Shown here: in pieces, positions 2,453 through 63,964 of the stretch
Numbering within the stretch: the stretch's first letter is position 1
How the letters are laid out: every line of letters begins with the position of its first letter
Virus record (IMG/VR): IMGVR_UViG_2974715202_000001
Source: a virus
Direction: 5' to 3' (one strand)
Length of the DNA stretch: 64,000 bases
Position numbers and translations under genes: made by a program
The notes under the pieces: model-generated
Seen by the model: the letters and a program-made list of their open reading frames with translations, nothing else
Told to the model about the DNA's origin: nothing
Database searches by the model: none

Positions 2453-3232
2453 CTAATCCTCCACCGACCGAACGATTTCCATATTGCGACCGGCATTGGT
2501 TCCGGCAGCGTAGGCGCGCCGACCGTCACTGTCTTCCAGACGCGTGAGTTTGGTAACATTCGACTTCTTGTAACCCGGATCGCCGAAATGTTCGTGGACC
2601 GCAGCCTCTTTCACCACAACCAGAGACGTTCCGGCCGAGGAAACCAGTTCCATACGTTTCCTGGTGATGGATTGGAGGCGATAGCTGATTTCCTGGGTCG
2701 CGGCGAGCTTAAATTGCGCAGCAACCTTGACGTTAAACCGCTCGAACCCTTGAGCCTTCTGATATTCCCGGCACAGACGGTCTACTGCCTCGACCAGGGA
2801 GTTGAACATGTTCACCGCAAGCTCAACGTCCGACTTGTAGCCTTTAAATCGAACGGCATGACCCCAGCGCTTGGTGGTGCTTCCGTCGCGAGCGCTCCTG
2901 GACGCCTTAGCCGATGCTCGGTGATTGTTGATGCCACCGGCGAAATCCGTGATGCAATCATTATACGTCGCCACTGCCACCGAGAAGAACTTCATCCAGT
3001 TCGGGATTGCGGAATAGTAGCGAGTCGCAATTTGCTCGTCGAATTCTTCGCGAATCTCACCGGTTGCTTCGAAGTCGTGAAGGTCATATTTATCCTTCAG
3101 CTTCTTCACGCGTTCTGCCGCGATGGCAGCTTCGTGCGGACTGGAAGAGTCGGCCGCCATTGCAGTCAGCTTGCGAATGCGATCTTTCGCCTTCTCGATG
3201 GCTTCAGGAGTGAATTCGTTCTGGTCGGTCAT
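2453..3232 (-). CDS. DUF2786-like protein
   Basis: Start reassigned to ATG 3232 (RBS AAAGGA). The segment RIRKLTAMAADSSSPHEAAIAAERVKKL resembles DUF2786. Confidence 0.7.
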   Translation of the reverse strand: MTDQNEFTPEAIEKAKDRIRKLTAMAADSSSPHEAAIAAERVKKLKDKYDLHDFEATGEIREEFDEQIATRYYSAIPNWMKFFSVAVATYNDCITDFAGGINNHRASAKASRSARDGSTTKRWGHAVRFKGYKSDVELAVNMFNSLVEAVDRLCREYQKAQGFERFNVKVAAQFKLAATQEISYRLQSITRKRMELVSSAGTSLVVVKEAAVHEHFGDPGYKKSNVTKLTRLEDSDGRRAYAAGTNAGRNMEIVRSVED

Positions 3233-3254
3233 GGTCGGTTCCTTTTGTCTGAAG

Positions 3255-3325
3255 GTTTCGCGTTTCGATGGAGCTATTCTGCCTTCATCCAGAGTGGAAG
3301 TAAAGCATTTTCTTTCATTATTTCG
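3255..3325 (-). promoter_or_regulatory. Sigma70-like early promoter
   Basis: TTTACT (3299-3304), 17 nt, CAGAAT (3276-3281). Upstream AAATAAT and downstream ATCGAAACGCGAAAC are shared with other copies. Confidence 0.7.
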
Positions 3326-10698: not shown

Positions 10699-10905
10699 AT
10701 GCCGTTAGTTCATGGCACTTCCAATGAGGCTCGTTCTGAAAACATCAAGCGGGAAATCGAAGCCGGTAAAGACCCAAAGCAGGCTGCGGCCATCGCTTAT
10801 TCCATCCAGCGCAGTGAGAAAGGGAAGACGGCGAAAGATTGTTCGCCTAAGCTCGTCGCCGATCTTCGCGCCCTGGTGGACGCTCTGTCGAGGCTCGTGA
10901 AATGA
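10699..10905 (+). CDS. Small head-module protein, 68 aa
   Basis: [30 protein letters not shown] pattern is common next to head genes. Confidence 0.75.
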
Positions 10906-11042
10906 ACCGCAAGACGTGCCGGCGCCGACTCGTGGTCGATGTAATCAGGGCCAATATTCACGGCGGATTCTTCAGCCTGAAGTTTGCCGCCATCGATTTG
11001 GCAATCATCGGCTTCGCCATCTTGATGGCTTTTGGCCGATAA
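10902..11042 (+). CDS. Small membrane peptide, 46 aa
   Basis: Translated by hand: [50 protein letters not shown] overlap. Confidence 0.55.
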
Positions 11043-11089
11043 TGCTGAGAAAATCTGGATTCTGACTAAAAATTCTAGTCCGGATAGCC

Positions 11090-11430
11090 GCAAATTACCG
11101 TTTACGGAAAATAGCAGTAATTTGGAAATCCTACTGCCGCGAGGCTTTAACAGAGCCAGTTCCTAATTTCCGATTTAGCCGCATGCTTCAAAAGTATATA
11201 GCCTGGGAAATTAGAAGTAACGTTCCAATAGAATTCATCTATAAGTAACGCTATAATATAACGTCAATCTATATACTCTAGACGTATTGAAATTCAATTT
11301 TTAATCGGTAAATTGGTAATTTGAATTAGTTTAGGAGTTGAAAGCCTCGCGGCAGTAGGCTTAGACAAATCCCGTCAAGTTTCCGAGACCAAATTACCGG
11401 ATTTTCGCGGCTGAGGAAACTGGTAATTAG
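11090..11430. repeat. AT-rich non-coding element A (origin-like), homologous to 57150-57480
   Basis: 19-bp perfect inverted repeat (11130-11148 / 11341-11359), several GGTAATT and TCGCGGC repeats, and 44/49 nt identity of 11338-11386 to 57368-57416. Confidence 0.8.
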
Positions 11431-11493
11431 ATCACAATACAAATTATAATGTAAGTTAACAGTCGCGGCTACATCTAATTATTGTTCCGCTTA

Positions 11494-11522
11494 TTTACCC
11501 TTAGATGTACTGCGTATATAAT
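11494..11522 (+). promoter_or_regulatory. Promoter of the capsid operon
   Basis: TTTACC, 17 nt, TATAAT; overlapped by a 9-bp inverted repeat (11470-11478 / 11501-11509). Confidence 0.7.
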
Positions 11523-11554
11523 ACAGCCATAGTCCACGACTCTTCGAATTAACG

Positions 11555-12988
11555 ATGGCAAAGTCGAAAAGAAAAATTGACGAAAATGGATATATGACCA
11601 TAGAGGGCTGCCCGATCAGCTCTTATGGCGTTTTCCAATATTCTGCTGGTCAACTCGGTCTTCCGGGCGATCCGACGCGGATTGTCAACGTATATCGCCC
11701 GGAGTCTGCCGTCAGCGATCCGGAGTACATCGAATCTCTGAAGAATCTCCCGTTGATCGACGAGCATGAGATGCTGTCGGGATTCGACGATGATGACGAT
11801 AGCGTGGCCCCCGAAGACAAAGGGGTGGAGGGCATCATCACATCCAACGCTTACTACGAAGCCCCATGGGCACGCGGCGATATCCGCATCTATTCCCGCA
11901 ACATGCAGAATCAGCTGGAAAGGGGCAAAGAAGACCTGTCCCTAGGCTATAGTTGCCGCTACACTGAGCAACCCGGCATCTGGAACGGAACGCCTTATGA
12001 AGTCGTCCAGGACAAGATGCGCGGCAACCACATTGCCCTGGTAAAAGAGGGTCGTGTGCCGGGGGCCAGAGTATTGGATGGTCTGTGTTTTGACCATCTC
12101 AGTTTTGATTTCAGACCATCCGATGAGGGTAATGAAATGAGTCTCAAGAAAGCCAAGCGGAAGCCCCCTGTCCAGCGCGTAGGGCAAGCTGCTGACTCGG
12201 CGGTCGAAGAGTTGCGCGCCCTGTGGCCGAAGCTATCTGCGTCTGTCCAGAAGTTCCTGGGCGAAGAAGAGCAGGAGCCGGAGCATCAGGAAGGCGCAAC
12301 TCCGGCCGAACCGACCGACAGCGAGCACCTGACCGAGCATCCGACTCTGGAAGGTGCTCAGAAGGATGACGAAGAGCAGGAAGAGGAGCCTTCCGTTGTC
12401 GATCCGGCCGTGGCCGCCGTCGAGCCGGAGCATCAAGAAAGCGCCGCATCCGAAATGTCCGGTGAAGGCGAAGTCGCCGAACTGATCTCTCAGGTCAAAG
12501 CCATTCTGGCTCGACTGGAGGGCACGGTAGCCGAAGGGGCAGACGAAGAGCATGGCGAAGGTCAAGATGTCGTCGAGGGCTTGGAGGAGCAGAGCAGCCT
12601 CAGCGGCTCGCAAACCGCCAGCGACGATGGTGGTGAGAGCAAGGATAACAGCGAGGAACTTCCTGAAATGGCACAGAAGAACGCGCAAGATGCTGCAATT
12701 CGCGGTCTCTATCGCGACATTGCTGCTAAAGATCGCCTCTACAAGCGTCTTAGCTCCGTGGTTGGTGCGTTCGATCACCGAGCTATGGACTCGGCTGAAG
12801 TCGCTGTTTACGGCGTGAAAAAGCTGAACATCAGCTGTGCGAAGGGCCAGGAAGCTCTGGCGCTCGACATGTACCTGAAAGGCGTCGAAGCCTCGCGCGG
12901 CGCGGCCAGCCGTCAATCGAAAGCCCAGGATTCGGCCGGTTCTGCTCCGCAGTGTGCCGAGCTGGACAGCTACCTGAAGGGGGAGTAA
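11555..12988 (+). CDS. Head maturation protease/scaffold (DUF2213-like)
   Basis: N-terminal G++.Y..G.LG, V.V.RP, LSLGY.C and GNHIALV..GR motifs; long acidic scaffold region. Confidence 0.85.
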   Translation: MAKSKRKIDENGYMTIEGCPISSYGVFQYSAGQLGLPGDPTRIVNVYRPESAVSDPEYIESLKNLPLIDEHEMLSGFDDDDDSVAPEDKGVEGIITSNAYYEAPWARGDIRIYSRNMQNQLERGKEDLSLGYSCRYTEQPGIWNGTPYEVVQDKMRGNHIALVKEGRVPGARVLDGLCFDHLSFDFRPSDEGNEMSLKKAKRKPPVQRVGQAADSAVEELRALWPKLSASVQKFLGEEEQEPEHQEGATPAEPTDSEHLTEHPTLEGAQKDDEEQEEEPSVVDPAVAAVEPEHQESAASEMSGEGEVAELISQVKAILARLEGTVAEGADEEHGEGQDVVEGLEEQSSLSGSQTASDDGGESKDNSEELPEMAQKNAQDAAIRGLYRDIAAKDRLYKRLSSVVGAFDHRAMDSAEVAVYGVKKLNISCAKGQEALALDMYLKGVEASRGAASRQSKAQDSAGSAPQCAELDSYLKGE

Positions 12989-40485: not shown

Positions 40486-43400
40486 CGCCATTCCCCTCTT
40501 CGGAATCTTTCTCGGCTTGCGCTGCCAACTTTGCTTTCTCGCGTTCGGTCAATATCCGCTTGACGGCCTTCACGATGAACATATCGATTCCGCTGAGCTT
40601 CCATCCTTTGATGAGGAACCAAGAGCCGGTCGGCGTTCCTTCGGCAATATTCTTCCCGTACTGAATATATTTTTCAGGGCGAATCCTGAAACGAATCGGT
40701 TGGTCAACCGAGTCATCCACGCACATCAAATCGAGGAACTGCGACTGGCCTTTGTACACCGGATTCTTTCCTTGGTCAGCCCTCTTCTTCTGGCGGATCG
40801 GTTCATTCTCATCCGACAGAACTTTCTTTACCATCTTGACGATAACTAGGCCATCGTCGCCATCGCGGATATCCCGAATGTTCTGAATGGGATTTCCGGA
40901 AGTCACCCCAACCAACTCAGGATTGTCATAGGCATGACCCCAGAGCGTATGAGACTCGTTCAAATCCGCGAATTGAACCTCAGAATTGGACAAACTCGCG
41001 GCAACTTTCTCCCAATCCTGAAGCGTTTTAAGATGGGGGCCGGCCAGCTCTTTATATTGCGCCTTCAACTCCTTCAGTTCAGCTTTCAACTCCTTGAGAT
41101 CAGCTTTGAGCAGCTTCTCCAGTTCTTTGTCTTTGCTGACTTTCGCCGAAAGAATCTGGGCTTCCAGCGCGGCAACGTCATCAGACTTATCCTCTACATC
41201 CTGCGCCGAAATCGGGCAATTGGCCAGGGCGATCCTCGCGGCCTTGACTTCCTCGCGAAGACGCAAGAACCGCTCGGCCTTAGCCGGGCCGAAGCCTTTG
41301 GCGTTCATGATGCCGCCGATCAGGCGTCCGTCCGCTACCACCCAGTTGAGTTCGGAATGCTCCGGGTCCAGGGCCGTATATTCTACGCCTTCTTTGGCCA
41401 ATTCGCGAAGGATAGACACAGTTTGCTGGTCGTCCTTCGCCGCCCGGAGGCACGCGGCCGCGTATTCCAGGCGATGATACCGCTTCATGTAGCAGGTCCA
41501 GTACGTCACCACGGCATAGCTTACCGAGTGGGAGCGGTTGAATCCCCAGGCTCCGAACGTCACCATTTCCTGCCAAACTCGGTGAGCGTCTTCCGGGGCG
41601 ACGCCTATGGTCTTGGCGCCTTCGATGAACAGTTCTCGGCGCTTGTTGAAGAACTCTTCACCCTTTCGCGCCGACATCGCTTTCCGGATTGCCGACGTTT
41701 GTTCCCAGTCGAACTGACCAATGTCCTTCACAATTGACATGATCTGTTCTTGGTACAGGAACACGCCATACGTACCAGACAGATACTGCTCGACCTGCGG
41801 AATGGTATAGGTCACAGGCTCGCGACCGGCCACGCGCTCGATGTATTTAGTGGCCATTCCCGAAGACAACGGACCCGGACGAGCGAGCGCCGTAATGTGG
41901 TCGATGTTTTCGAACGCGGTGATGTTGATAGCATTGGCGACCGAGCGGACGGCCTGGCCTTCGAACTGGAAGATGCCTGACATCTTGTCTTCGTTGAGAA
42001 CATCCAAAACCGCCTTGTCGTTCAACGGTAAGTCGTACAACTCTTGTGCGGTCACGCAATTCGCATCTTGGATGACGCCAAGCGTTCGAAGGCCGAGCGC
42101 ATCAATCTTGAGAAGATTCAAATATTCCGAATCAGGCTTGTCGAGCTGCGCGATACCTTCAGAAGTCACCGTACAGAAATCGATTACTTCATCGTTGCAG
42201 ACCAGGATGCCTGCCGCGTGGACGCCGGAGTGGGATGGGTGAATTTCGAGGTCTCCCATGCAGGCGGACGCAATCTCATACTTTTCGCGGAAGTCGCGGC
42301 CGGGTTGAGTTTTTTCGAACGTGTCCTCCAATCCTTTTCCATATCGTTCGTCCGCCGAAGTATATTCGATGATCGAGTTTTTGATGTTGTCGGTATCATG
42401 GAATGGAATGCCGAAGCGCTTCCCGACGTGAGCGATAACCGACGCGGCCTTCAGCGTATTGATGTTACCGAGCTTCACCACGTTCCAAGTGCCGTATTTC
42501 TGCTGGAGATATTCGAACACTAGATAGCGATGGGTATCGGCGAAGTCGATATCTATATCGGGAAGATCGGAACGGGAAATGTCGATAAAGCGCTGGAAGA
42601 GAAGGCGATGCGGGAGCGGATCAACCTCGGTAATACCCAGCAGGTAGCAGACCAAAGAGCCGGCCGAAGAGCCGCGAGCCGGGCCGACCAGCATGTGCTT
42701 CTTGGCGAACGCAACTAGATCGGCTACCACCAGGAAGTAGCTGTCGAAGTCTTTCAGCTGAATTTGCTTGATTTCTTCCTGGAACCGATCTTCGTAAGCT
42801 TGGGTCCATTCCTTGATGTGGCCGCGACTGAGACGGTAGGCTTGGCCCTCGCGAGCCAGGGCGACGATATCACCATCTAGGTGGATCATTGGCGCTTTTG
42901 CCAGTTTTACATCGACCAGCTGCTCGACCACCGCATGCGTATTGGCCACGGCCTCGTCGAACTCTTCGCGGGTCATGATATGGCGAAGACGGGTCCACAA
43001 CTCTTCCTCAGTCGCGATGTGGCGAAGTCCGACCGATTCCCGAACCTTCCAGGCCGAAGCAAAATCTACATGGCCGATGGACGGCATGTCGTTGTAGGAG
43101 GTAATCACCACAGGCTTGCCGAACGCCCTGGCCGTCTCCATGGCGCCGTGCGCGGCGACCATCGACGCAGGATTGATGTCAATGTAGTCGATTCCGGCCA
43201 AGTCCAAGTGGGCATAAGCCTCGCCGGCAAACTTGATGATGCCGTCAGCATCCTGGAATTCTTTGGGCGACAAGCCTTGATTCTGGACAGTCTTCGAAGT
43301 AAGGCGATAGAATTTTCTGGTATCTTTGGCTAGCGCCCAGGCCTTCAGCTTCAGCTCTTTTTCGCCATCATCGGCGCATTTGATCGGGATTTCCATGCCG

Positions 43401-45438: not shown

Positions 45439-46356
45439 CTACATTGACTTCCCATTGACCGCTACAGGATTGGCCTCTTGTTTCTCCGATCCCCAGAACT
45501 CGCGGCGCAGCTCTTCCTGCTCGGCCGAGCGATCCATCCATGGACGATAGAACTTGCACTGATAGATCGGTTTCACCGGCAACTCAACCACAGGAATCTG
45601 GCCGGGCTTCGTCTCCAGAGCGGACATGAAGCGGTCATAGGATTGCTCATGGATCTCATCTTCATTCAGAACCTTCGATCCATAGCGCGGGAAGGCACAG
45701 GAGCCAGTGGCGACGCAGTGCGGCTGGAGCAGACTATCGAACATAGGATAGACTTCCAGAACCAGTCGGCGCATTTCGCGGAAGGCTTCCTGATACTCCC
45801 CTTGCGTACGAACACACAGGCGAACTTTCGCCATGTCGCTGAGAGTCCGCAGATTGAACTTGGCCGCGATCTTCGTTTCCATGTTGGAAGGGATGATCGC
45901 GCGGGCATCCTGGAGCGATGCGCCGGCATCCAAGAGCTTCTGGTAACTGGTCTGCGCGTCGGCGATGGCATCGTGCCACAGGCGGTTCAGCTCTTCGCGG
46001 GCGTGATAGGTCGGGTCCGGCTCGCCATTGGCCGTAGCCTGCTCATCGAAATCCCAGCGGAATGCTTCCGGCTGAACAACGGCGCTAACCTCCAGGGCGC
46101 GACTGGTTTCCTGCTGGTAAGCGCCGGTCCGCGTCCGAACGAGTTGATGGGTGAAATTCTTGCTCACACCCTCGATCTGGAAAATGAAGTCCACGAATTC
46201 GAACGGCGAGCGAATGGTGTCAAGCATGTACTTCCAGTGGTCGAGCTTTTCGGCTTCGGTCATGGTCGTCGGGTCTTGGCCGCGCATGCGAGTGGATTTC
46301 GTCCCCAGGAGAAGTTCCCAGGCGTTCTGGGTGTAACTTATCAGAGAAATTTTCAT
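45439..46356 (-). CDS. thyX: Divergent ThyX-like flavin-dependent enzyme
   Basis: SPFEF, THQLVRTR...QQETSR, QDAR.IIP and NLRTL motifs. Confidence 0.8.
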   Translation of the reverse strand: MKISLISYTQNAWELLLGTKSTRMRGQDPTTMTEAEKLDHWKYMLDTIRSPFEFVDFIFQIEGVSKNFTHQLVRTRTGAYQQETSRALEVSAVVQPEAFRWDFDEQATANGEPDPTYHAREELNRLWHDAIADAQTSYQKLLDAGASLQDARAIIPSNMETKIAAKFNLRTLSDMAKVRLCVRTQGEYQEAFREMRRLVLEVYPMFDSLLQPHCVATGSCAFPRYGSKVLNEDEIHEQSYDRFMSALETKPGQIPVVELPVKPIYQCKFYRPWMDRSAEQEELRREFWGSEKQEANPVAVNGKSM

Positions 46357-46562
46357 CAGGAATCTTCCGGAATTGGCGTGAAAGTGAATTTCTCCACCAG
46401 TGCCATGGCCAACGCTTGTGCGTCTTCCTTATGAAGACCGTATCTGTCGATTTCTTCGGCCAGCAATCTGCAAGCCTCCAGACGGTCTTCATACTCTTCG
46501 GCGTGGCACATGGACGAAAAGATAGTGCCGTCAGAGGTCCGGTACACCAGTTCAATGGACAT
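46356..46562 (-). CDS. Hypothetical protein, 68 aa
   Basis: RBS GAGGA; Y.TSDG.IF motif. Confidence 0.7.
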   Translation of the reverse strand: MSIELVYRTSDGTIFSSMCHAEEYEDRLEACRLLAEEIDRYGLHKEDAQALAMALVEKFTFTPIPEDS

Positions 46563-46573
46563 TACTGCGATCC

Positions 46574-46840
46574 TCAGTAGCAGCGGATGATTTCGGCGCG
46601 AATATCGCGACGGTCCAGGTAATGCTCAATAATCTTGTCGCGGGCGCGCTCGGCCTCTTCGCGACTGCCGAACGACAGGTTGAACGAAGTGAAAGGCTTA
46701 TCGTCCAGGCGTCCATCGCCGATCAGGTACAGGATGCCTACCAGCACGAAAGACGGCGCTGTCTGTCGCGTTTGCGGCGGGTCGATTTGCATTTCGAGGA
46801 AAGACATGGGAACCTCTTCAGGATGGTCTGGTGAGTACAT
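46574..46840 (-). CDS. Hypothetical protein, 88 aa (MYSPDHPEEV...)
   Basis: Own RBS CAGGAG and TAATG junction at 46838-46842. Confidence 0.65.
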   Translation of the reverse strand: MYSPDHPEEVPMSFLEMQIDPPQTRQTAPSFVLVGILYLIGDGRLDDKPFTSFNLSFGSREEAERARDKIIEHYLDRRDIRAEIIRCY

Positions 46841-47261: not shown

Positions 47262-47491
47262 TAACCTACCACATTCCAGCCGTGCTGGGCGCACCATACC
47301 GCGCCAGTTCCCGCAGGAAGACTGTTAAGAAGGAATACAGGGGTCAGGCGGCCATCCTCGGTCATGTGGATGAAGTAGCGTGCACTTTCACCGAGCCATT
47401 CGGCCTTGGCGATGGCGCGTTCGAGGTTGATCTTGGTGGCGTAGGTCTTGGTGGTGTTTTTGTCGGTGGAGAAGGTTACTTCGCGGGCCAT
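47261..47491 (-). CDS. Hypothetical early protein, 76 aa
   Basis: RBS AAAGGA directly behind a conserved promoter. Confidence 0.75.
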   Translation of the reverse strand: MAREVTFSTDKNTTKTYATKINLERAIAKAEWLGESARYFIHMTEDGRLTPVFLLNSLPAGTGAVWCAQHGWNVVG

Positions 47492-47516
47492 TTTGTCGAT
47501 TCCTTTTGGTTGAAGG

Positions 47517-47588
47517 GTTTCGCGTTTCGATGAGGGAATACTACTCTCACCTGGCTCAGAAGTAAAGCACTTTGTGTAAATTATTTCA
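47517..47588 (-). promoter_or_regulatory. Sigma70-like early promoter
   Basis: TTTACT (47561-47566), 17 nt, TAGTAT (47538-47543); AAATAAT upstream and ATCGAAACGCGAAAC downstream. Confidence 0.75.
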
Positions 47589-51505: not shown

Positions 51506-52291
51506 ATGCAAGAATGCAAGATTTCCCGCGACCAACTCCCGGTCGGCAATCCGAATCCCAATGTCGATAAGACTCGCGACCCGAACCTAAAGCCCGGCTA
51601 CCTGCGTCGCAGTCGCGAGCTGGACCCGGCTCTGGCCGTTCGCATCCGTCGCGAGCTGATCCATGCGGAAGCCTCCGACTTGGCCATGGCCGGGTGGGTC
51701 AATTCCCAGTCCAGCCTCTATGGATCGAAAGCGTTCCCGCGCCATTCCGTCGTTCGCGTGACTGGGATGGCGGAATCTGAAACGAACGTCGGAATGCTCA
51801 TCGGATTCATCGAGCACCGCAAGCACGGTGAATGGGCAGTTCTGGAAACTGGGACGAAAGAAGGCGGCGCGATCACCATCCCAGTCGAGAGCATCATGCG
51901 TGCGTCATTCGCAGAGGCCGAAGAATTCGCCGAGAAATGGAAGCGTAACCTGGGGTGGCGCCTCCTGCGTCAGCTTCGTGAATGCGGCGCCCTGGCCGGG
52001 ACTGAAGACGAATTCCTGCGGCGGATAATCAATCGATATGTTCGCGATCTCACGATACTCGCCCACCACAAAGCCGGCGCAGACAAAAGCTATACCAATG
52101 CAGTGCTCAAAAGTATCGGCGAAGCATGGCCGCAGATTCCTGCAGGAACATTCGTCGGCCACCGGGTCGCGCAACTTCTGATCAATCACAAACTAGGACG
52201 AGCTGGCACCATCTTGAATGACCTGGTGGACTTCCTGGAGAAGTTCGCGGCCGGGCGCGATAAAGTTCTCAACATCGCCATCTGTAATTGA
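51506..52291 (+). CDS. Hypothetical protein, 261 aa
   Basis: RBS GAGGA; first gene of the operon. Confidence 0.8.
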   Translation: MQECKISRDQLPVGNPNPNVDKTRDPNLKPGYLRRSRELDPALAVRIRRELIHAEASDLAMAGWVNSQSSLYGSKAFPRHSVVRVTGMAESETNVGMLIGFIEHRKHGEWAVLETGTKEGGAITIPVESIMRASFAEAEEFAEKWKRNLGWRLLRQLRECGALAGTEDEFLRRIINRYVRDLTILAHHKAGADKSYTNAVLKSIGEAWPQIPAGTFVGHRVAQLLINHKLGRAGTILNDLVDFLEKFAAGRDKVLNIAICN

Positions 52292-55165: not shown

Positions 55166-56905
55166 ATGATTATCGACGAAGATAATATTTTTGATGATGG
55201 CGAATCAGGGTCCAGTGAGTTTGATCTCACGCAGATAGAAGATGCTGGAATGGACCCTTTGATGACCGCCGCGAGCAAGGCGGCCGATGATGCGATTGCG
55301 AGGAACGAAACGCATCGCGCGCAAAAGGCGGCAAGATACGCCGAGGCGTATGCTGAACCAGACTTGAGGAAGCGAGCGCGGTTGTTGATGCTCGACCAGG
55401 CGTTCGATCTTCCGGTCAGCCGGGTGGTGAAAGGGCCGTTTGATGATTTCATCACTAAGTACAGCTCGACTTCCGACAGCAACTACCTCGCGGTCTACGA
55501 CACGTTGTTCTGTAAGGGCGACGGGACCGTCCCGCACCCGCACTTCGACGAGTTTCGCGGCCGGCTGGTGGACCATCGCGGCGTGGCGTTCAACAACAAG
55601 ACCCTCGACCCCATTGACCTGATGGGTGCCCTCGCAGCTGCGGCCTTGGACGATCCCTCGATTAAGAAGACGATTGAGACTTGCTGCGTTTGGGCGCGTC
55701 GATATCGCCGCAACTCTCTGATCGAGACGTTTGAGAAGAAGATACCAGAGTGGGACGGCGAAGAGCGAATTGGCACGCTGCTGATCGATCTTTTCAAGCC
55801 GTTCGACACCGAATTGAACAGGATGGTGAGCAAGTATTTCTGGCTGAGCCTGTACTGTCGCATCAATTATCCGGGAATTTCGGCGCCGATTTCTCTGGCG
55901 TTGATTGGTGGGCAAGATGCGGGTAAATCCTATTTCGGCCTGCTGATCTGCAAGGAGCTGTCGGGCGGTCGCGATCTGGCTCCAGTCCAACTCGACCTGA
56001 GCCGACACGACCAGACGCCGTTCCTGCGCAACATCACCGGCAACTCGGTTATTGCGAACGTCGGCGAAATGTCCGGCTTCAAAAAGGGCGACATGGAACG
56101 CATCAAAGAATTCCTGGTGCGATCTTCGGATACATTCGATCAGAAGTTTGAGCCTGGCGAAACGATCAAGCGACAATGGATCACCATCATGGACGGCAAC
56201 GGATACGATGGACTCCAGCGGGACGACTCCGGCAACCGTCGATTCTATCCGATGTTCGTGGCACAACTTCCCGACGAAGATGGAAAGCCGAACTGGGTTA
56301 AGCCGGGCGATGGTAATGAACCGTTCAAGGTGGACTTCACCGACTTCGGCCGCAAATTCTGGCAAGCGATGGCCGAGTGCCGCGCCTGGATCGAAGAGCA
56401 TGGCGTCGATGGCTACCTGAATATGGTGTCGGAAGCAAACCGCGAAGTCCAGAACTTCTCTATTTCGGAAATGGAGAATGCGCGTGGCGTGGTTCGCGAC
56501 GATACGATTGATATGTATCTGATCAATGTCCTGATCAGTTGCGAGTTTGAAGAGATTAAGCCTGGTGGGAATGCCAAGAATCCTGGATGGAGGGCTGACA
56601 CCGTCGCCATTCTGAAATGGTTCGATATTCTCGCCAGGAAGAAGCCGATTTCTCGTCACCTTACTCCGCACCTGAAATCGCTTGGATTCATTCCGAATAA
56701 GAACGGCCTGGCTGGTTGGTGCTTACCTGTCGATAAGGTTGCGCCTGGATGGACGAATGGCATGCACACGACGTTGCCGCCGTTCAATGATGCGCTTGTG
56801 TACTTGCTGAGAAAGGGCGACCCGGATATCACTGATGAGGCTGCCATGGCAAAAATTCGGGCAGTCCGGGCCGAGCGAGCCAAGATTTTGGGCGAGGATT
56901 TCTGA
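55166..56905 (+). CDS. VapE-like P-loop helicase/ATPase (primase partner)
   Basis: PEWDGEER, GGQDAGKS Walker A and RDDSGNRRFYP motifs. Confidence 0.8.
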   Translation: MIIDEDNIFDDGESGSSEFDLTQIEDAGMDPLMTAASKAADDAIARNETHRAQKAARYAEAYAEPDLRKRARLLMLDQAFDLPVSRVVKGPFDDFITKYSSTSDSNYLAVYDTLFCKGDGTVPHPHFDEFRGRLVDHRGVAFNNKTLDPIDLMGALAAAALDDPSIKKTIETCCVWARRYRRNSLIETFEKKIPEWDGEERIGTLLIDLFKPFDTELNRMVSKYFWLSLYCRINYPGISAPISLALIGGQDAGKSYFGLLICKELSGGRDLAPVQLDLSRHDQTPFLRNITGNSVIANVGEMSGFKKGDMERIKEFLVRSSDTFDQKFEPGETIKRQWITIMDGNGYDGLQRDDSGNRRFYPMFVAQLPDEDGKPNWVKPGDGNEPFKVDFTDFGRKFWQAMAECRAWIEEHGVDGYLNMVSEANREVQNFSISEMENARGVVRDDTIDMYLINVLISCEFEEIKPGGNAKNPGWRADTVAILKWFDILARKKPISRHLTPHLKSLGFIPNKNGLAGWCLPVDKVAPGWTNGMHTTLPPFNDALVYLLRKGDPDITDEAAMAKIRAVRAERAKILGEDF

Positions 56906-56930
56906 TGTAGTGGTGGAGTGTACTTGGACT

Positions 56931-56957
56931 AGGCCGCCTTCGGGCGGTCTTTTCTTT
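56931..56957 (+). terminator. Intrinsic terminator
   Basis: AGGCCGCC-TTCG-GGCGGTCT followed by TTTCTTT. Confidence 0.85.
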
Positions 56958-56999
56958 GGTGCGGCGTACATTCGATTCCGGTGGTGGCCGAGTGAGATT

Positions 57000-57500
57000 C
57001 GAAAGCTATCCGGTAATTAGGGTGGGGTGGCGACGGTGTATTGTGGAAAGTTCGTGGACGTTGGATCGAGGATTTTGTGTGGTGAGTGGATGAATTGTGG
57101 AAAATCGACGATTCTGACTGGATTTTTGGGGTCGGCCGCGTCGAGCTTACCGGTAATTTACGAAACCGGTAATTAGGGCCTAGCCTTAGTGCCGCGTGGG
57201 CTTGAAGCGCTTATTCGGATACTTTCCGGTTTCGGACGCAGCCGCAAAAGTATACTACAGCGAAAATCGATTGCACAATCCTAATAGAAAAAATCTATCA
57301 CGGACGTTACCTATCTTTAAAATTAATTAAATTAATAGTAATTTGGTAATTTGGTAAACTTTAGTATTTGAAAGCCTCGCGGCACTAAGCTTGTACATAT
57401 CCCGTCAAGTTTCCGATTCCAGCCAGCTCGCGGCAGGGTCGCCGGAAACTTCCGGACTTCCAATCCATGGGTCGCGGCAAAACCACGGCGGACTAAGCGG
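57000..57500. repeat. AT-rich non-coding element B (origin-like), homologous to element A
   Basis: CCGGTAATT copies at 57010, 57150 and 57166; TCGCGGCA at 57377, 57428 and 57472; 44/49 nt identity to 11338-11386. Confidence 0.8.
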
Positions 57501-57867
57501 CAGGCTCCAAAACTCGACGAACGGAGCCGGAAATTTGGGAGCACGACAGAATCGCTCAGCTGGACATATTTCGAACATTCGATTTAACACTCCCCGCAAA
57601 CACTCACCACCATCGTCTCCCGCCAACCGCCGACTCGACCATCACCCACCAGCGGATCGCCCGTATAACATCCTATAACACCACCTAACACTCATTCATC
57701 ATCAAACCCACCCAGACCTACAGCCCACCCACAAGCAGCCCATAGACGCGATCCCTGGCCCCATAGTACAATCGCGCCATACTCAGTGTCGCGGCAGAGC
57801 ACCAGGCCCATCCACCACCAACTCCACCGCGACGACTCCAGAATCGAACTCAGGGACGCAGCACCAA

Positions 57868-58437
57868 ATGACCAAACACTACAGCCCCGACGATCTAGTC
57901 ACGCCACAGGAATTCGCAGACCCGCATTTCGCGGCGATCAACCAAAAGCGATTCGACCTGTACATCGACCTGCGCGTCCAAGGCTACAGCTCCTGGCGGG
58001 TCTTCCGGGCCATCTGGGGCGAGGAGCATATGGACGGTCCCGCGCAGGCCCGCATCTTCGCGATGGAGTCCAACCCGTACTATCGCAAGCAGTTCAAGGC
58101 CAAGTTGAACGCGACCAAAACGTCCGATTTGTGGAATCCAAAGACGGCGCTCCACGAACTCCTCCAAATGGTTCGTGACCCCACCGTCAAGGACTCCAGC
58201 CGTCTGTCGGCCATCAAGGAATTGAACGTTCTGGCTGAAATCACGTTCGTGGACGAGTCGGGCAAGACCAGGATCGGTCGCGGTTTGGCCGACTTCTACG
58301 CATCAGAAGCCGAGGCTCAGACCGCCACCGTCGCTGCTGCGGCCGAAGCCAATGGCTATGTGCCGGAAGGCGAAGAGGGAGATTTCCCGTCTCCGACGCC
58401 GGAACCGACCGAGGAAGACCGCGCCAACCCCATTTAG
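57868..58437 (+). CDS. terS: Terminase small subunit
   Basis: N-terminal HTH-like segment and ALHELLQM...DSSRLSAIKEL oligomerisation pattern; 189 aa; monocistronic. Confidence 0.7.
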   Translation: MTKHYSPDDLVTPQEFADPHFAAINQKRFDLYIDLRVQGYSSWRVFRAIWGEEHMDGPAQARIFAMESNPYYRKQFKAKLNATKTSDLWNPKTALHELLQMVRDPTVKDSSRLSAIKELNVLAEITFVDESGKTRIGRGLADFYASEAEAQTATVAAAAEANGYVPEGEEGDFPSPTPEPTEEDRANPI

Positions 58438-59320: not shown

Positions 59321-59407
59321 ATCAGATTGATCGCAAAGCCGACGAACGGTTGTCGGATGTGAAAACACCGCAGAGCAGGCTGCGGTGTTTGTTGGCGAGG
59401 GCGATGG

Positions 59408-60118
59408 TCAAGCGAACGGATCGCCCAGCATATCTTCAGACGGGGCACGTTGCATATCGCCCAGCTTGTCTTCGTCAGTTGCCGGACTGGACGGGATCGC
59501 GCCGGACCGAAGCGACAGAGATTCCGACTGCCTGCTCACCTGCGGAGCCGGAGGAGCCGGAGGAGCCGGAGGAGCTTTTGGCGCAGTAGGAGCAGGCGGG
59601 ACCGGCAGGCCTGGAGGAGCCATCGGCGCCATGGGCGGTTCTGGAAGATCGGGAAGACTCGGCGCTATGCCGCCAAAGGACCGCTGCGACTGTTGCGCCG
59701 GATTGTCGTCGAACATTTCGGCGGATCGGTTGTCCTTGATGACTTGACCTATGGCCGTCTTGTCGCCGCCCGGCTCTGCCGGATCGAAGCCCGTGAATGG
59801 AGTGGTAACGCAGCGCATGTTCGGATGGGTAGGTAGATTTTTCAGTACTATGGAATCTGCCCAGACATACGGATTCTTGTGGTTGCCGGGTCCGTGGCTG
59901 ATGATCTCGGCAGGAATATGGCCGTTCATGGTGAGCCATTCCGCCATCCCTTGCCGAGTCAGCGGGCTTACCACGATCTGACCAGTGGACTCTTTGGCGA
60001 TGGCGAACAGATCACCGAATTCGAATCCGATGATTGTGTAGTTGGACCTGGACTCGCCGACGAAAGCCAGAGTTTCGATGTTGTGGTGGATATCTTGGTC
60101 TTCCCAGATGTACAGCAT
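59408..60118 (-). CDS. Protein with Pro-rich disordered C-terminus
   Basis: RBS GAGGAG; PPAPPAPPAP tract. Confidence 0.7.
   Translation of the reverse strand: MLYIWEDQDIHHNIETLAFVGESRSNYTIIGFEFGDLFAIAKESTGQIVVSPLTRQGMAEWLTMNGHIPAEIISHGPGNHKNPYVWADSIVLKNLPTHPNMRCVTTPFTGFDPAEPGGDKTAIGQVIKDNRSAEMFDDNPAQQSQRSFGGIAPSLPDLPEPPMAPMAPPGLPVPPAPTAPKAPPAPPAPPAPQVSRQSESLSLRSGAIPSSPATDEDKLGDMQRAPSEDMLGDPFA
59544..59575. repeat. 9-bp tandem repeat GGAGCCGGA, about 3.5 copies
   Basis: Read directly in the sequence. Confidence 0.9.
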
Positions 60119-63129: not shown

Positions 63130-63377
63130 CGTACATACTCCCCAAAGTAGCAGGTGTGGAGGATTTCCAGGCCCTTGGAGATAGCCTTCAGCTTGATGCC
63201 AAAGTTCTTGATTGCCCAGTCCAGATCGTGGTGATAGAACTCGATGATGTTGACGATTTGACCGGCGCTGTAGTGGATGACGCGAACCTTGCCATTCCAG
63301 CGGAAATCTTCGCGGCTGTTTACGGCCTCGACTTCGATGGTGTCGTTTCTGCCGATGGTCCATTTGGAGTTGGTCAT
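63126..63377 (-). CDS. Hypothetical early protein, 83 aa
   Basis: RBS GAGGA behind a promoter. Confidence 0.75.
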   Translation of the reverse strand: MTNSKWTIGRNDTIEVEAVNSREDFRWNGKVRVIHYSAGQIVNIIEFYHHDLDWAIKNFGIKLKAISKGLEILHTCYFGEYVR

Positions 63378-63399
63378 GTCGCAATCCTCTTTTTGGAGT

Positions 63400-63471
63400 G
63401 TTTCGCGTTTCGATGAGGTAACTATACCTAAGTCACCTCATCGAGTAAAGCACTTTTGAACAGATTATTTG
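63400..63471 (-). promoter_or_regulatory. Early promoter embedded in a 13-bp inverted repeat
   Basis: TTTACT (63444-63449), 17 nt, TATAGT (63421-63426); IR 63411-63423 / 63431-63443 with one mismatch. Confidence 0.8.
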
Positions 63472-63505
63472 AATTTCTGGAAGACAGATCCATCGGCTGA
63501 TTTAG

Positions 63506-63691: not shown

Positions 63692-63718
63692 TTCAAGTTC
63701 CTCTTTGGAGCGCTTCTG

Positions 63719-63782
63719 GTTTCGATGAGATGACTATACCTCAGTCATCTCATCGAGTAAAGCACTTCTGAGGAATTATCTG
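63719..63782 (-). promoter_or_regulatory. Early promoter embedded in a perfect 13-bp inverted repeat
   Basis: TTTACT (63756-63761), 17 nt, TATAGT (63733-63738); IR 63723-63735 / 63743-63755. Confidence 0.8.
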
Positions 63783-63964
63783 AAATTTCTGGAAGCCAGG
63801 AATTGTCGCCAGAGCCAGTCAACGTGATCGTTGAGGTAGCGCTCGCCATCGGAAGACAGAGCCAGGCATCCATCCTTTATGCCGAGCTTGGAGCCGGCAA
63901 TCCATTCGAACTCGAACTGGAGCGTTCCTGGGCGAGGGACATGGGACATGATGTACTTTTGCAC
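63776..63964 (-). CDS. Hypothetical protein, 62 aa, GTG start
   Basis: RBS GAGGA upstream. Confidence 0.55.
   Translation of the reverse strand: MQKYIMSHVPRPGTLQFEFEWIAGSKLGIKDGCLALSSDGERYLNDHVDWLWRQFLASRNFR

What the first reader, a model, noticed from the sequence alone, without database searches (positions are those of the whole stretch)
11090..11470. Two homologous AT-rich non-coding elements 46 kb apart
Seen: 11338-11386 and 57368-57416 match at 44 of 49 nt. Further anchors (TTTCCGxTTT, CAAAAGTATA, AATAGAA, ATCTAT) align at a constant 46,056-nt offset over 11167-11242 versus 57223-57298. Both elements have an inverted GCCGCG..GCTT / AAAGCCTCGCGGCA pair around an AT-rich core; in element A this is a perfect 19-bp IR. 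Both carry GGTAATT repeats and three downstream TCGCGGC copies, spaced 58 and 58 nt in A. Inference: twin iteron-type replication origins or packaging/protein-loading sites, one of them inside the head operon.
Basis: partly seen in the sequence, partly recalled or inferred. Interest (0 to 1): 0.75.

Follow-up and report, generated by a model that had tools for sequence, protein, structure and literature searches.

The report
Twin packaging-site-like elements in PB1-like phages
One of two related AT-rich non-coding elements in this PB1-like Pseudomonas phage is the already proposed DNA-packaging start site in front of the small terminase gene, and the other is a conserved copy of it in front of the head-assembly genes, a pairing that recurs in three other phage genera and whose purpose is untested.

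Summary
The window is a Pbunavirus (PB1-like Pseudomonas phage).

**Element B (56906-57867)** lies between the primase-helicase gene and the small terminase gene terS (PDB 7UXE homologue). Two independent published data sets place a preferred virion DNA end at window 57267|57268. That position sits in B's most conserved block. A published transcription start for terS (14-1 P040) maps to 57371, the first bases of the 49-nt A/B match. B is therefore the already proposed pac site plus the terS promoter and leader.

**Element A (11043-11554)** is a roughly 330-nt paralogue of B's core. It sits about 190 nt upstream of the mapped head-protease promoter. No transcription start and no DNA end is reported in its copied part.

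**New here:** the same pairing occurs in Wifcevirus, Kylevirus and Myosmarvirus. In each, a terS-proximal terminus element has a copy upstream of the head protease. Each genus has its own repeated boxes, shared by both of its copies, plus a common TGCCGCR/YGCGGCA core. In WFH (by its record's ends) and MyoSmar (by PhageTerm) the physical genome end also falls in the B-like AT core.

**Best reading (about 50%):** both elements load the same sequence-specific packaging or late protein, most likely TerS. B is cut; A is an auxiliary, uncut or rarely cut site.

Twin origins and a purely transcriptional module remain open. The element is not a known RNA family.

The parts
11043..11554 (.). Element A: a 512-nt non-coding gap between a 46-aa ORF (10902-11042) and the head maturation protease gene (11555-12988)
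   Evidence: ORF list and annotation of relatives. The gap is present in about 270 of 274 Pbunavirus records.
11130..11148 (+). A left arm of the perfect 19-bp inverted repeat (CCTACTGCCGCGAGGCTTT), containing the cross-genus TGCCGCR core
   Evidence: A G-to-A change in this arm is matched by a C-to-T change in the right arm in 5 of 9 phages.
11149..11340 (.). A AT-rich core. It contains the lowest-GC 300-nt stretch of the window (34% GC, starting at 11187). Position 11210|11211 is homologous to B's cut site, with 33 of 54 identities and identical spacing.
   Evidence: The 33-of-54 count is my own hand count from the sequence.
11287..11391 (+). A copy of the 105-nt shared block. It holds TTGGTAATTTG boxes, a degenerate copy of the P040 -10 region (TAGGAG instead of TAGTAT), the right repeat arm (11341-11359) and ATCCCGTCAAGTTTCCGA.
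   Evidence: No transcription start is reported at the homologous position in phage 14-1. One RNA contig does start at 11340, which is only a weak hint.
11392..11470 (.). A right flank: an inverted pair of GGTAATT boxes (11392-11398 on the minus strand, 11422-11428 on the plus strand) around TCGCGGC copy 2 (11405), then TCGCGGC copy 3 (11463)
11494..11529 (+). Sigma-70 promoter TTTACC-17-TATAAT, with its transcription start at 11529, for the protease/scaffold/capsid genes. This is the homologue of 14-1 P014 and is not part of the A/B homology.
   Evidence: Promoter scan and Putzeys Table S3. These 84 nt are almost invariant across phages.
56906..57867 (.). Element B: a 962-nt non-coding gap between the primase-helicase gene (55166-56905) and terS (57868-58437)
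57020..57110 (+). G/T-rich left flank of B. A similar flank is present in the WFH and MyoSmar B-like elements.
57185..57204 (+). B left arm (CTTAGTGCCGCGTGGGCTTG). GGTAATT boxes lie upstream at 57012, 57152 and 57168. In roughly 170 of 273 records this left half is replaced by an A-like version.
57254..57325 (.). B-specific block that is almost invariant: 4 variable columns in 72, pi 0.016 against 0.11 in the flanks, with a 47-nt invariant run at 57276-57322. It contains the preferred virion DNA end at 57267|57268, the putative pac cut.
   Evidence: for conservation. For the end: Ab29 record ends, Essoh 2015, and JG024 nanopore read starts at 59,376, which is 601 nt before terS.
57317..57421 (+). 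B copy of the shared block. It holds the terS promoter (14-1 P040; -10-like TAGTAT at 57362-57367), the transcription start at 57371, and the right arm at 57371-57389, which forms the first bases of the terS mRNA.
   Evidence: Putzeys Table S3 and S5. Coordinates were mapped through the alignment.
57422..57560 (+). B right flank: TCGCGGC copies at 57428 and 57472, and a possible stem, 57408-57416 pairing with 57443-57451, around copy 2
57561..57867 (+). C/A-rich terS leader with a second mapped promoter (TAGACG-18-TACAAT at 57743-57772; transcription start at 57779, corresponding to 14-1 P041)
57868..58437 (+). Small terminase gene terS
   Evidence: Matches PDB 7UXE (E217 small terminase) at E = 7e-125 over all 189 residues.

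Best explanation
B is the phage's packaging-initiation (pac) region, fused to the promoter and leader of the small terminase gene. A is a conserved paralogous copy of that region, placed in front of the head protease/scaffold/capsid operon.

The parts the two share are arrays of protein-binding sites:
- inverted TGCCGCR...YGCGGCA boxes;
- tandem GGTAATT(T/A)GG boxes;
- an AT-rich, easily bent or melted core between them.

The same sequence-specific protein most likely recognises both elements, and the decameric small terminase is the prime candidate.

At B, this assembly positions the large terminase to make the first cut of a headful series at 57267|57268. It also sits on the terS transcription start, so it could feed back on terS expression.

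A lacks B's near-invariant cut block and lacks a usable -10 element. There the same protein would bind without (or with only rare) cutting. That binding could link head-gene expression to packaging, or provide a second terminase-loading or synapsis site on the concatemer.

What is shown and what is inferred:
- Shown: the homology; the genus-wide and cross-genus conservation; the position of terS.
- Published for close relatives (Ab29, JG024, 14-1) and mapped here by alignment: the DNA end and the transcription starts.
- Inferred: which protein binds, and what A does.
For: 1. terS lies directly downstream of B.
2. A fixed read end in Ab27-29, with the Ab29 record starting at window 57268.
3. 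Independently, 36 of 161 long nanopore reads of JG024 start 601 nt before terS, and a matching pac restriction fragment was seen. PhageTerm also predicted a pac site in an AT-rich region for SCUT-S1.
4. The cut lies in the most conserved part of B.
5. In Wifcevirus WFH the record's position 1 lies in the AT core of the homologous element, 91 nt before an AAAGACTTGCGGCA box, against 103 nt in the window. In Myosmarvirus MyoSmar the PhageTerm repeat boundary lies in the equivalent AT core.
6. In four genera the best non-self match of the terS-upstream region is the gap upstream of the head protease: E = 7e-20, 3e-19 and 2e-26 and 7e-11. Each genus has its own boxes, shared by both of its copies: GGTAATT; ATACGGATGATACG; ATAACCGTT; TACTTTTCGTTTTTT. 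This is concerted evolution, as expected for sites of one co-evolving protein.
7. GGTAATT occurs only in A and B.
8. A's copy of the transcribed block is conserved although its -10 is degenerate and no start is mapped there. This argues for a role at the DNA level.
9. The E217 small terminase is a decamer whose C-terminal helix may stack rings. T4 offers a precedent for two pac-like sequences recognised by the small terminase.
Against: - No binding data exist. The E217 small terminase showed no appreciable DNA binding in vitro.
- No DNA end has been reported at A, and I could not test this on raw reads.
- B also lies directly after the primase-helicase gene. In Xanthomonas phage Carpasina a B-like region stays next to the primase while terS is 2.7 kb away. 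That fits an origin equally well.
- Three related phages (Carpasina, Pluto, Gekk3-15) show no detectable A/B twin, so A is not universal.
- A's sequence diversity (pi 0.059) is about 3-fold below synonymous sites of most neighbouring genes, but it equals that of the adjacent protease gene (0.062). Selection on A is therefore not proven within the genus.
Confidence: 0.5

Rival explanations
1. Twin replication origins, in the manner of SPP1 oriL/oriR or P4 ori/crr. The repeated boxes would bind the phage initiator (the VirE/primase-helicase encoded just upstream of B), and the AT-rich core would be the unwinding element. The packaging cut in B would be a separate, superimposed function.
For: - Boxes flank an AT-rich core, which includes the lowest-GC stretch of the window.
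- B follows the primase-helicase gene in Pbunavirus, MyoSmar, Gekk3-15 and Carpasina. In Carpasina it stays with the primase although terS is 2.7 kb away.
- The SCUT-S1 authors also suggested that the AT-rich pac region might be an origin.
- B's most conserved cut block is not shared with A, so what the two share could serve something other than cutting.
Against: - The cumulative GC-skew minima are at 51,748 and 41,970, not at A or B (the same in the Banzai paper).
- A and B are not at the points where genes diverge.
- There are no initiation data.
- The direct physical evidence at B concerns terminase action, not replication.
Confidence: 0.2
2. Paralogous transcription-control regions only. 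A duplicated late-operon promoter and operator module would be bound by a phage or host regulator that times terS and head-gene expression. The pac function would reside solely in B's private block.
For: - A mapped sigma-70 transcription start lies exactly at the start of the shared 49-nt block in B.
- Both elements sit upstream of morphogenesis genes that have mapped promoters (P014, P040, P041).
- The boxes overlap the -35/spacer region of P040.
- The LBL3 record's annotation predicted sigma-70 promoters in both elements.
- RNA contigs break or start near 11280-11340.
Against: - A's copy has a degenerate -10 region in all 9 phages, and no transcription start was found there in 14-1.
- Four to eight boxes on both sides of a 100-190-nt AT core is unusual for a simple operator.
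- Only two such regions exist although there are many late promoters.
- The physical end lies between the boxes in three genera.
Confidence: 0.2
3. A structured RNA element: a leader, a small RNA or an RNase site formed by the long-range arms or local hairpins of a plus-strand transcript.
For: - The region is transcribed. The terS leader starts at the right arm, and A is covered by read-through RNA.
- Some arm changes are compensatory or wobble-compatible.
- Stems around TCGCGGC copy 2 can be drawn in both elements, with one G-C to A-U switch in A.
Against: - No Rfam match at E of 1 or less.
- The only ncRNA candidate in 14-1 lies elsewhere.
- There is no common A+B consensus fold (alifold energy -5).
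- The small AAGCCT/AGGCTT hairpin is broken in several phages.
- B's outer arm complementarity is lost in the A-like left-half variants.
- B's left arm is upstream of the transcription start.
- RNA depth over A is about 100-fold below that of the protease gene.
Confidence: 0.05
4. A is a decaying relic of an old duplication or gene conversion (or a MITE-like insertion) with no function of its own.
For: - A's diversity equals that of synonymous sites in the adjacent protease gene.
- Recombination between A and B clearly happens, as the A-like left half of B in many phages shows.
- Three relatives lack a detectable twin.
Against: - The twin is kept at the same syntenic place in four genera whose small terminases are only 39-46% identical, and boxes are renewed in both copies.
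- Perfect inverted repeats are kept in A and in the A-like element of WFH.
- GGTAATT is enriched in A alone at P < 5e-5.
- A has only two copies and no target-site duplication, so it is not a mobile element.
Confidence: 0.05

Closest known systems
pac site of headful phages with flanking small-terminase boxes and an overlapping terS promoter (Bacillus phage SPP1 pacL-pacC-pacR; also P22 and P1 pac). The SPP1 details come from my own knowledge.
   Same: - Located just upstream of terS.
- A cleavage point lies in a core flanked by repeated boxes on both sides.
- It overlaps the promoter of the terminase operon.
- The virion DNA is partially permuted, with one preferred end.
   Different: - The cut is 600 nt from terS.
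- The boxes are unrelated in sequence.
- Binding by the small terminase is not shown, and E217 TerS did not bind DNA in vitro.
- A second full paralogue (A) exists 20/46 kb away, which SPP1 pac is not known to have.
Putative Pbunavirus pac site reported for JG024 (position 59,376; Ipoutcha 2024), Ab27-29 (Essoh 2015) and SCUT-S1 (Guo 2019)
   Same: Element B contains exactly this position (window 57267|57268).
   Different: In the passages I read, those papers report only a coordinate or an 'AT-rich region'. They do not describe the anatomy, the paralogue A or the cross-genus pairing.
Phage T4 pac-like sequences in gene 16 and gene 19, and the 'twin ring pac synapsis' model (Dixit, Ray and Black 2019, as cited in PMC9611059)
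   Same: - Two homologous sequences are involved, one at terS and one among structural genes.
- Both are proposed to be recognised by small-terminase rings.
- The E217 small terminase may also stack rings.
   Different: - The T4 sequences are 24 bp long, lie inside coding genes and are about 3 kb apart.
- Here the elements are 330-nt non-coding regions 20/46 kb apart.
- No synapsis or amplification data exist for this phage group.
Paired phage origins (SPP1 oriL/oriR; P4 ori/crr). These come from my own knowledge.
   Same: - Two homologous cis elements lie far apart, one next to the initiator/primase gene and one among late genes.
- Both have repeated boxes plus an AT-rich region.
   Different: - No initiation or initiator-binding evidence exists here.
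- GC skew points elsewhere.
- A terminase cut lies inside B.
Left end of the long direct terminal repeat in Wifcevirus and Myosmarvirus (WFH by its record's ends; MyoSmar by PhageTerm)
   Same: - The element is homologous in position and architecture to B: terminator, G/T-rich flank, boxes, AT core holding the physical end, YGCGGCA boxes, C/A-rich leader, terS.
- A twin lies upstream of the head protease.
   Different: Those phages have fixed ends with 3.6-3.7-kb repeats, whereas Pbunavirus packages by headful.

Membership tests
pac site (headful packaging initiation site) | Lies in or next to the small terminase gene | tested here: met
   For B: terS (7UXE homologue) starts at 57868, 600 nt after the cut. 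Not met for A, which lies 20 kb downstream or 46 kb upstream of terS.
pac site (headful packaging initiation site) | A preferred physical DNA end in virion DNA at the site, in an otherwise permuted population | tested here: inconclusive
   Met for B on published data only: the Ab29 record start and fixed read end, and JG024 with 36 of 161 long reads plus a pac fragment. I could not re-test it because only assembled contigs were served. No end has been reported at A.
pac site (headful packaging initiation site) | Sequence-specific binding by the small terminase | not testable with these tools
   Only indirect evidence: repeated boxes that co-evolve in both copies across genera. E217 TerS did not bind DNA in vitro.
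iteron-type replication origin | Repeated initiator boxes next to an AT-rich unwinding region | tested here: met
   Four GGTAATT boxes and TGCCGCR/YGCGGCA boxes flank a 34-41% GC core in both elements. This architecture is shared with pac and cos sites, so it does not discriminate.
iteron-type replication origin | Strand-composition (GC skew) switch at the origin | tested here: not met
   The cumulative GC-skew minimum is at 51,748, with a local minimum at 41,970. There is no extremum at 11.2 or 57.3 kb. The skew amplitude is small, so this is weak evidence.
iteron-type replication origin | Replication starts there, or the initiator binds there | not testable with these tools
   No time-course coverage or raw reads were available.
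sigma-70 promoter with 5' leader | Experimentally mapped transcription start preceded by -10 and -35 elements | tested here: met
   For B: 14-1 P040 (start at 59399, which maps to window 57371) and P041 (57779). For A's homologous position (11341): not met. No start is listed, and the -10 copy lacks its final T in all 9 phages. A's separate promoter, P014 (start at 11529), lies outside the homology.
known structured RNA family | Match to a curated covariance model, or a conserved fold with covariation | tested here: not met
   No Rfam hit at E of 1 or less and no common A+B consensus structure.
MITE-like mobile element | Terminal inverted repeats, target-site duplication, and many copies at non-syntenic places | tested here: not met
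   There are only two copies. They sit at fixed syntenic positions in four genera, and the inverted repeat is internal to the homology rather than at its ends.

The most novel reading that the evidence does not exclude
A and B are two loading sites for the small terminase that act together. One possibility is that stacked TerS rings bring the pac region and its twin in front of the head operon into synapsis on the concatemer, as a licence for the first cut, like the T4 'twin ring pac synapsis' model. The other is that TerS bound at A tunes head-protein synthesis to packaging capacity. Either way, this would be a conserved two-site packaging-control architecture in PB1-like phages of at least four genera.
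Probability: 0.2. Interest if true: 0.8.

Novelty: new variant of a known kind. Interest (0 to 1): 0.6.

Why it matters
Pbunaviruses are among the most used Pseudomonas therapy phages, and their genome ends have been disputed for 15 years.

This analysis ties the published pac coordinate to a defined, conserved DNA architecture. It also shows that the homologous element marks the fixed genome end in relatives with long terminal repeats.

The unexpected part is the second copy of the whole architecture in front of the head-assembly operon. It is kept, with renewed boxes, in four genera. If it binds the small terminase, it gives a tractable system for two open questions:
- how ring-shaped small terminases recognise DNA;
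- whether two-site (synapsis) recognition exists outside T4.

It also matters for phage engineering. Both regions should be treated as cis-acting and left intact when genomes are split or refactored.

Tried and rejected
- **15-mer scan of IMG/VR.** About 100 hits, nearly all chance matches in unrelated contigs. Not used.
- **Public runs.** Only assembled contigs were served, so neither transcription starts nor virion DNA ends could be measured. The RNA contigs show only that A is covered at low depth; their breaks are weak hints. Cover or the lack of it there is not used as evidence.
- **Own assembly.** Not held.
- **Papers not accessible.** The Lokareddy 2022 E217 terminase paper is not held. 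Ceyssens 2009 has no PMC copy, so I did not try to fetch it.
- **Outer-arm complementarity as proof of base pairing.** A has CTAC/GTAG and B has TTAG/CTAA, which I first read as evidence for pairing. I rejected this because in the A-like variant of B's left half, seen in 5 of 8 phages, the outer arms no longer match. Recombination between A and B explains the pattern.
- **Small hairpin AAGCCT-N9-AGGCTT.** Not conserved.
- **FBPa35 as a natural deletion of A.** It looked like one, but its record lacks about 2.4 kb including most of the essential protease gene. This is probably an assembly defect and is uninformative.
- **ORFs annotated across B in some records** (datas gp70, SCUT-S1 gp78, EPa61 gp22, BrSP1 ORF-1). 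Their frames are not conserved because of indels that are not multiples of 3, so I treated them as spurious.
- **Within-genus selection test on A.** Inconclusive, because the adjacent protease gene has equally low synonymous diversity.

Full report
**What the window is.** Megablast of either element finds about 273 records. All are Pseudomonas PB1-like phages (genus Pbunavirus), and some match A at 100% identity. With a more sensitive search, nearly every record holds two places matching A, that is both elements. Nothing outside the genus matches at the DNA level.

**Check of the observation.**
- 44 of 49 matches between 11338-11386 and 57368-57416.
- 50 of 90 matches at the constant 46,056 offset.
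- A perfect 19-bp inverted repeat in A (11130-11148 and 11341-11359). It is the only perfect inverted repeat of 16 nt or more within 400 nt in the window.
- Imperfect arms in B.
- TCGCGGC at 11347, 11405 and 11463, and at 57377, 57428 and 57472.

All eight GGTAATT heptamers of the window lie in the two elements. Each element has 4 against 0.11 expected from its own composition. The repeat finder returns a 105-nt block at 76%. In a sensitive blastn of the terS-upstream kilobase against about 23 kb of the genome, the top non-self hit is element A (E = 7e-20); the next hit outside element A has E = 0.07. An alignment of 17 copies (9 A, 8 B) shows colinear homology over about 330 nt. It runs from the left arm to GTTTCCGA.

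**Context.** A fills the 512-nt gap between a 46-aa ORF and the head maturation protease gene. B fills the 962-nt gap between the 579-aa primase-helicase and a 189-aa ORF. That ORF is the small terminase: it matches PDB 7UXE, E217 TerS, at E = 7e-125 over full length.

**What is already known about B.** Three sources point to the same place.
1. Essoh et al. 2015 saw reads with a single fixed end in the PB1-like phages Ab27-29 and set base 1 there. The Ab29 record ends ...GCGAAAAT and starts CGATTGCAC, which is window 57267|57268. BrSP1 starts at the same base.
2. Ipoutcha et al. 2024 found that 36 of 161 nanopore reads over 30 kb of JG024 start at 59,376 +/- 5, and they saw a matching pac restriction fragment. 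JG024 terS starts at 59,977. The site is therefore 601 nt upstream, again window 57267.
3. For SCUT-S1, PhageTerm predicted a pac site in an AT-rich region that "could be a replication origin".

The cut lies in the most conserved part of B. Positions 57254-57325 have 4 variable columns in 72 across 8 divergent phages (pi 0.016), against 0.11 in the flanks and 0.31 in B's left part. A 47-nt run is invariant.

ONT-cappable-seq of phage 14-1 (Putzeys et al., supplementary Table S3) lists a sigma-70 transcription start, P040, at 59399 (+). Its upstream 50-mer ends ...TTTAGTATTTGA. That maps to window 57371, the first bases of the 49-nt A/B match. The transcript covers terS. A second start, P041, maps to 57779.

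In A the only listed start is P014 (window 11529), from TTTACC-17-TATAAT just before the protease gene. No start is listed at A's homologue of P040. No minus-strand start is listed in either element. The only ncRNA candidate in 14-1 lies elsewhere.

So B is the putative pac site plus the terS promoter and leader.

**What A is within the genus.** A copies B's left arm, AT core, box array, right arm and the block ATCCCGTCAAGTTTCCGA.
- Around the position homologous to the cut, A keeps the spacing but only 33 of 54 bases. It does not share B's near-invariant block.
- Its copy of the P040 -10 region (TAGTAT in B) reads TAGGAG, TAGAAG or TAAAGA in the 9 phages. This fits the missing transcription start.
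- The arms of A change together across phages: G:C to A:T in the core and A:T to G:C at the outer end, with intermediates.
- This is not proof of pairing. B exists with two kinds of left half. About 100 of 273 records have the window's type. The others carry an A-like left half, 68% identical to A over 306 nt in SCUT-S1, whose outer arm no longer matches B's right arm.
- A and B therefore exchange sequence, and an A-type left arm works in B.
- A's diversity (pi 0.059) is about 3-fold below synonymous sites of three neighbouring genes (0.16-0.20). It equals the protease gene's (0.062). Constraint on A cannot be proven inside the genus.

**The cross-genus test.** This is the main new result. TerS homologues at 33-49% identity occur in phages of Escherichia, Serratia, Pantoea, Xanthomonas, Luteibacter, Aeromonas and others.

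*Escherichia phage WFH (Wifcevirus).* Synteny is kept, and a 422-nt gap precedes the protease homologue.
- The gap holds a perfect 22-bp inverted repeat of ATACGGATGATACG-type boxes around a 100-nt AT core, plus TTGCCGCGATACTTTA.
- The same boxes, the same AT-core sequence and an AAAGACTTGCGGCA box occur at the genome's left end upstream of terS, and just before the right copy of the 3.7-kb terminal repeat.
- The record's position 1 falls in the AT core, 91 nt before that box. The corresponding distance in the window is 103 nt.

*Serratia phage MyoSmar.* The PhageTerm repeat boundary lies 387 nt upstream of terS, in an AT core between GCGCCGCGAC and CAGCGGC boxes and after a VirE primase gene. 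The protease-upstream gap shares a 52-nt block (85%, E = 7e-11) and TACTTTTCGTTTTTT boxes with it. A 9-kb control gives nothing better than E = 0.055.

*Pantoea phage PA1 (Kylevirus).* The two regions share 189 nt at 70% (E = 2e-26), with ATAACCGTT-type boxes.

*No detectable twin.* Luteibacter Pluto, Aeromonas Gekk3-15 and Xanthomonas Carpasina show none. Carpasina does have a B-like region directly after its primase gene, with small ORFs between it and terS.

In summary, four genera keep a twin, and each has private boxes shared by both of its copies. A TGCCGCR (left) / YGCGGCA (right, 2-3 copies) core is seen in all four. G/T-rich and C/A-rich flanks of the terS-proximal copy are visible in Pbunavirus, WFH and MyoSmar. 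This concerted evolution is what sites of one co-evolving DNA-binding protein would show. It is hard to reconcile with a functionless relic.

**Mechanism.** The physical end lies between the boxes in three genera, so the boxes most simply belong to terminase recognition. The layout is like SPP1's pacL-pacC-pacR, which also overlaps the terS promoter (my own knowledge). A would then be a second platform for the same protein, without B's cut block.

The candidate protein is the decameric small terminase. Its C-terminal helix has been proposed to stack rings, and T4 gives a precedent for two pac-like sequences read by TerS rings.

Evidence against this reading:
- E217 TerS did not bind DNA in vitro.
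- B is also immediately 3' of the primase-helicase gene, a classic origin position.
- No data exist for A.

GC skew gives no support to origins at A or B: the minima are at 51.7 and 42.0 kb, as in the Banzai paper. A purely transcriptional role fits the mapped start in B, but it fits A's dead -10 poorly. RNA-family and consensus-fold tests are negative.

**Verdict.** B is already in the literature as a putative pac coordinate. The twin architecture and its conservation across genera did not turn up in the literature I could search, and they deserve an experiment.

Noticed in passing
window 57020-57110 and 57561-57860; L116:2640-2840; L122:3720-3880 (minus strand): The terS-proximal element is framed by a G/T-rich stretch on the left and a C/A-rich stretch on the right. 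This frame recurs in WFH and MyoSmar; PA1 and Carpasina show at least the C/A-rich right side. Carpasina has tandem CACCAACCCAG and CAGAACAACCC repeats there, and SCUT-S1 has a 39-nt duplication in its C/A tract.
   Followed up: partly
window 10902-11042: The 46-aa ORF just upstream of A ends in a hydrophobic, membrane-helix-like segment. A small ORF at this place is present in the four genera that have the A-like twin. It is absent in Carpasina and Pluto, which lack the twin.
   Followed up: no
window 11529-11650: In RNA contigs of two studies, depth rises 15- to 20-fold only at about 11615. This is about 85 nt downstream of the mapped start P014 (11529) and inside the annotated protease ORF, whose start codon differs between records (11555 versus about 11595). 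It could reflect RNA processing or be an assembly effect.
   Followed up: no
window 11555-12988: The protease/scaffold gene has unusually low synonymous diversity across the genus (pi 0.062, against 0.16-0.20 in neighbouring genes), decreasing towards its 3' end. Possible causes are a recombination sweep, a nested gene or an RNA-level constraint.
   Followed up: no
window 63389-63487 and 63701-63799; 3224-3270, 47486-47532, 63369-63415: A 99-nt direct repeat at 80% identity lies 312 nt apart. A recurring motif, GGTTTCGCGTTTCGATG, appears at three distant places next to minus-strand gene starts. Shared early promoter or leader modules are likely.
   Followed up: no
ON857938.1 (FBPa35) 45839-46647 = L124:9840-10648: This 62.3-kb record lacks about 2.4 kb covering the 3' part of the MuF gene, the small ORFs, element A and most of the protease gene. 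It is probably a mis-assembly or a defective genome.
   Followed up: partly
Records NC_050143 (gp70), NC_048745 (gp78), NC_048744 (gp22), MH536736, NC_048675 (ORF-1): ORFs of 136-225 aa are annotated across element B, over its pac core and C/A-rich leader. Indels that are not multiples of 3 break these frames between phages, so they look like over-annotation.
   Followed up: partly
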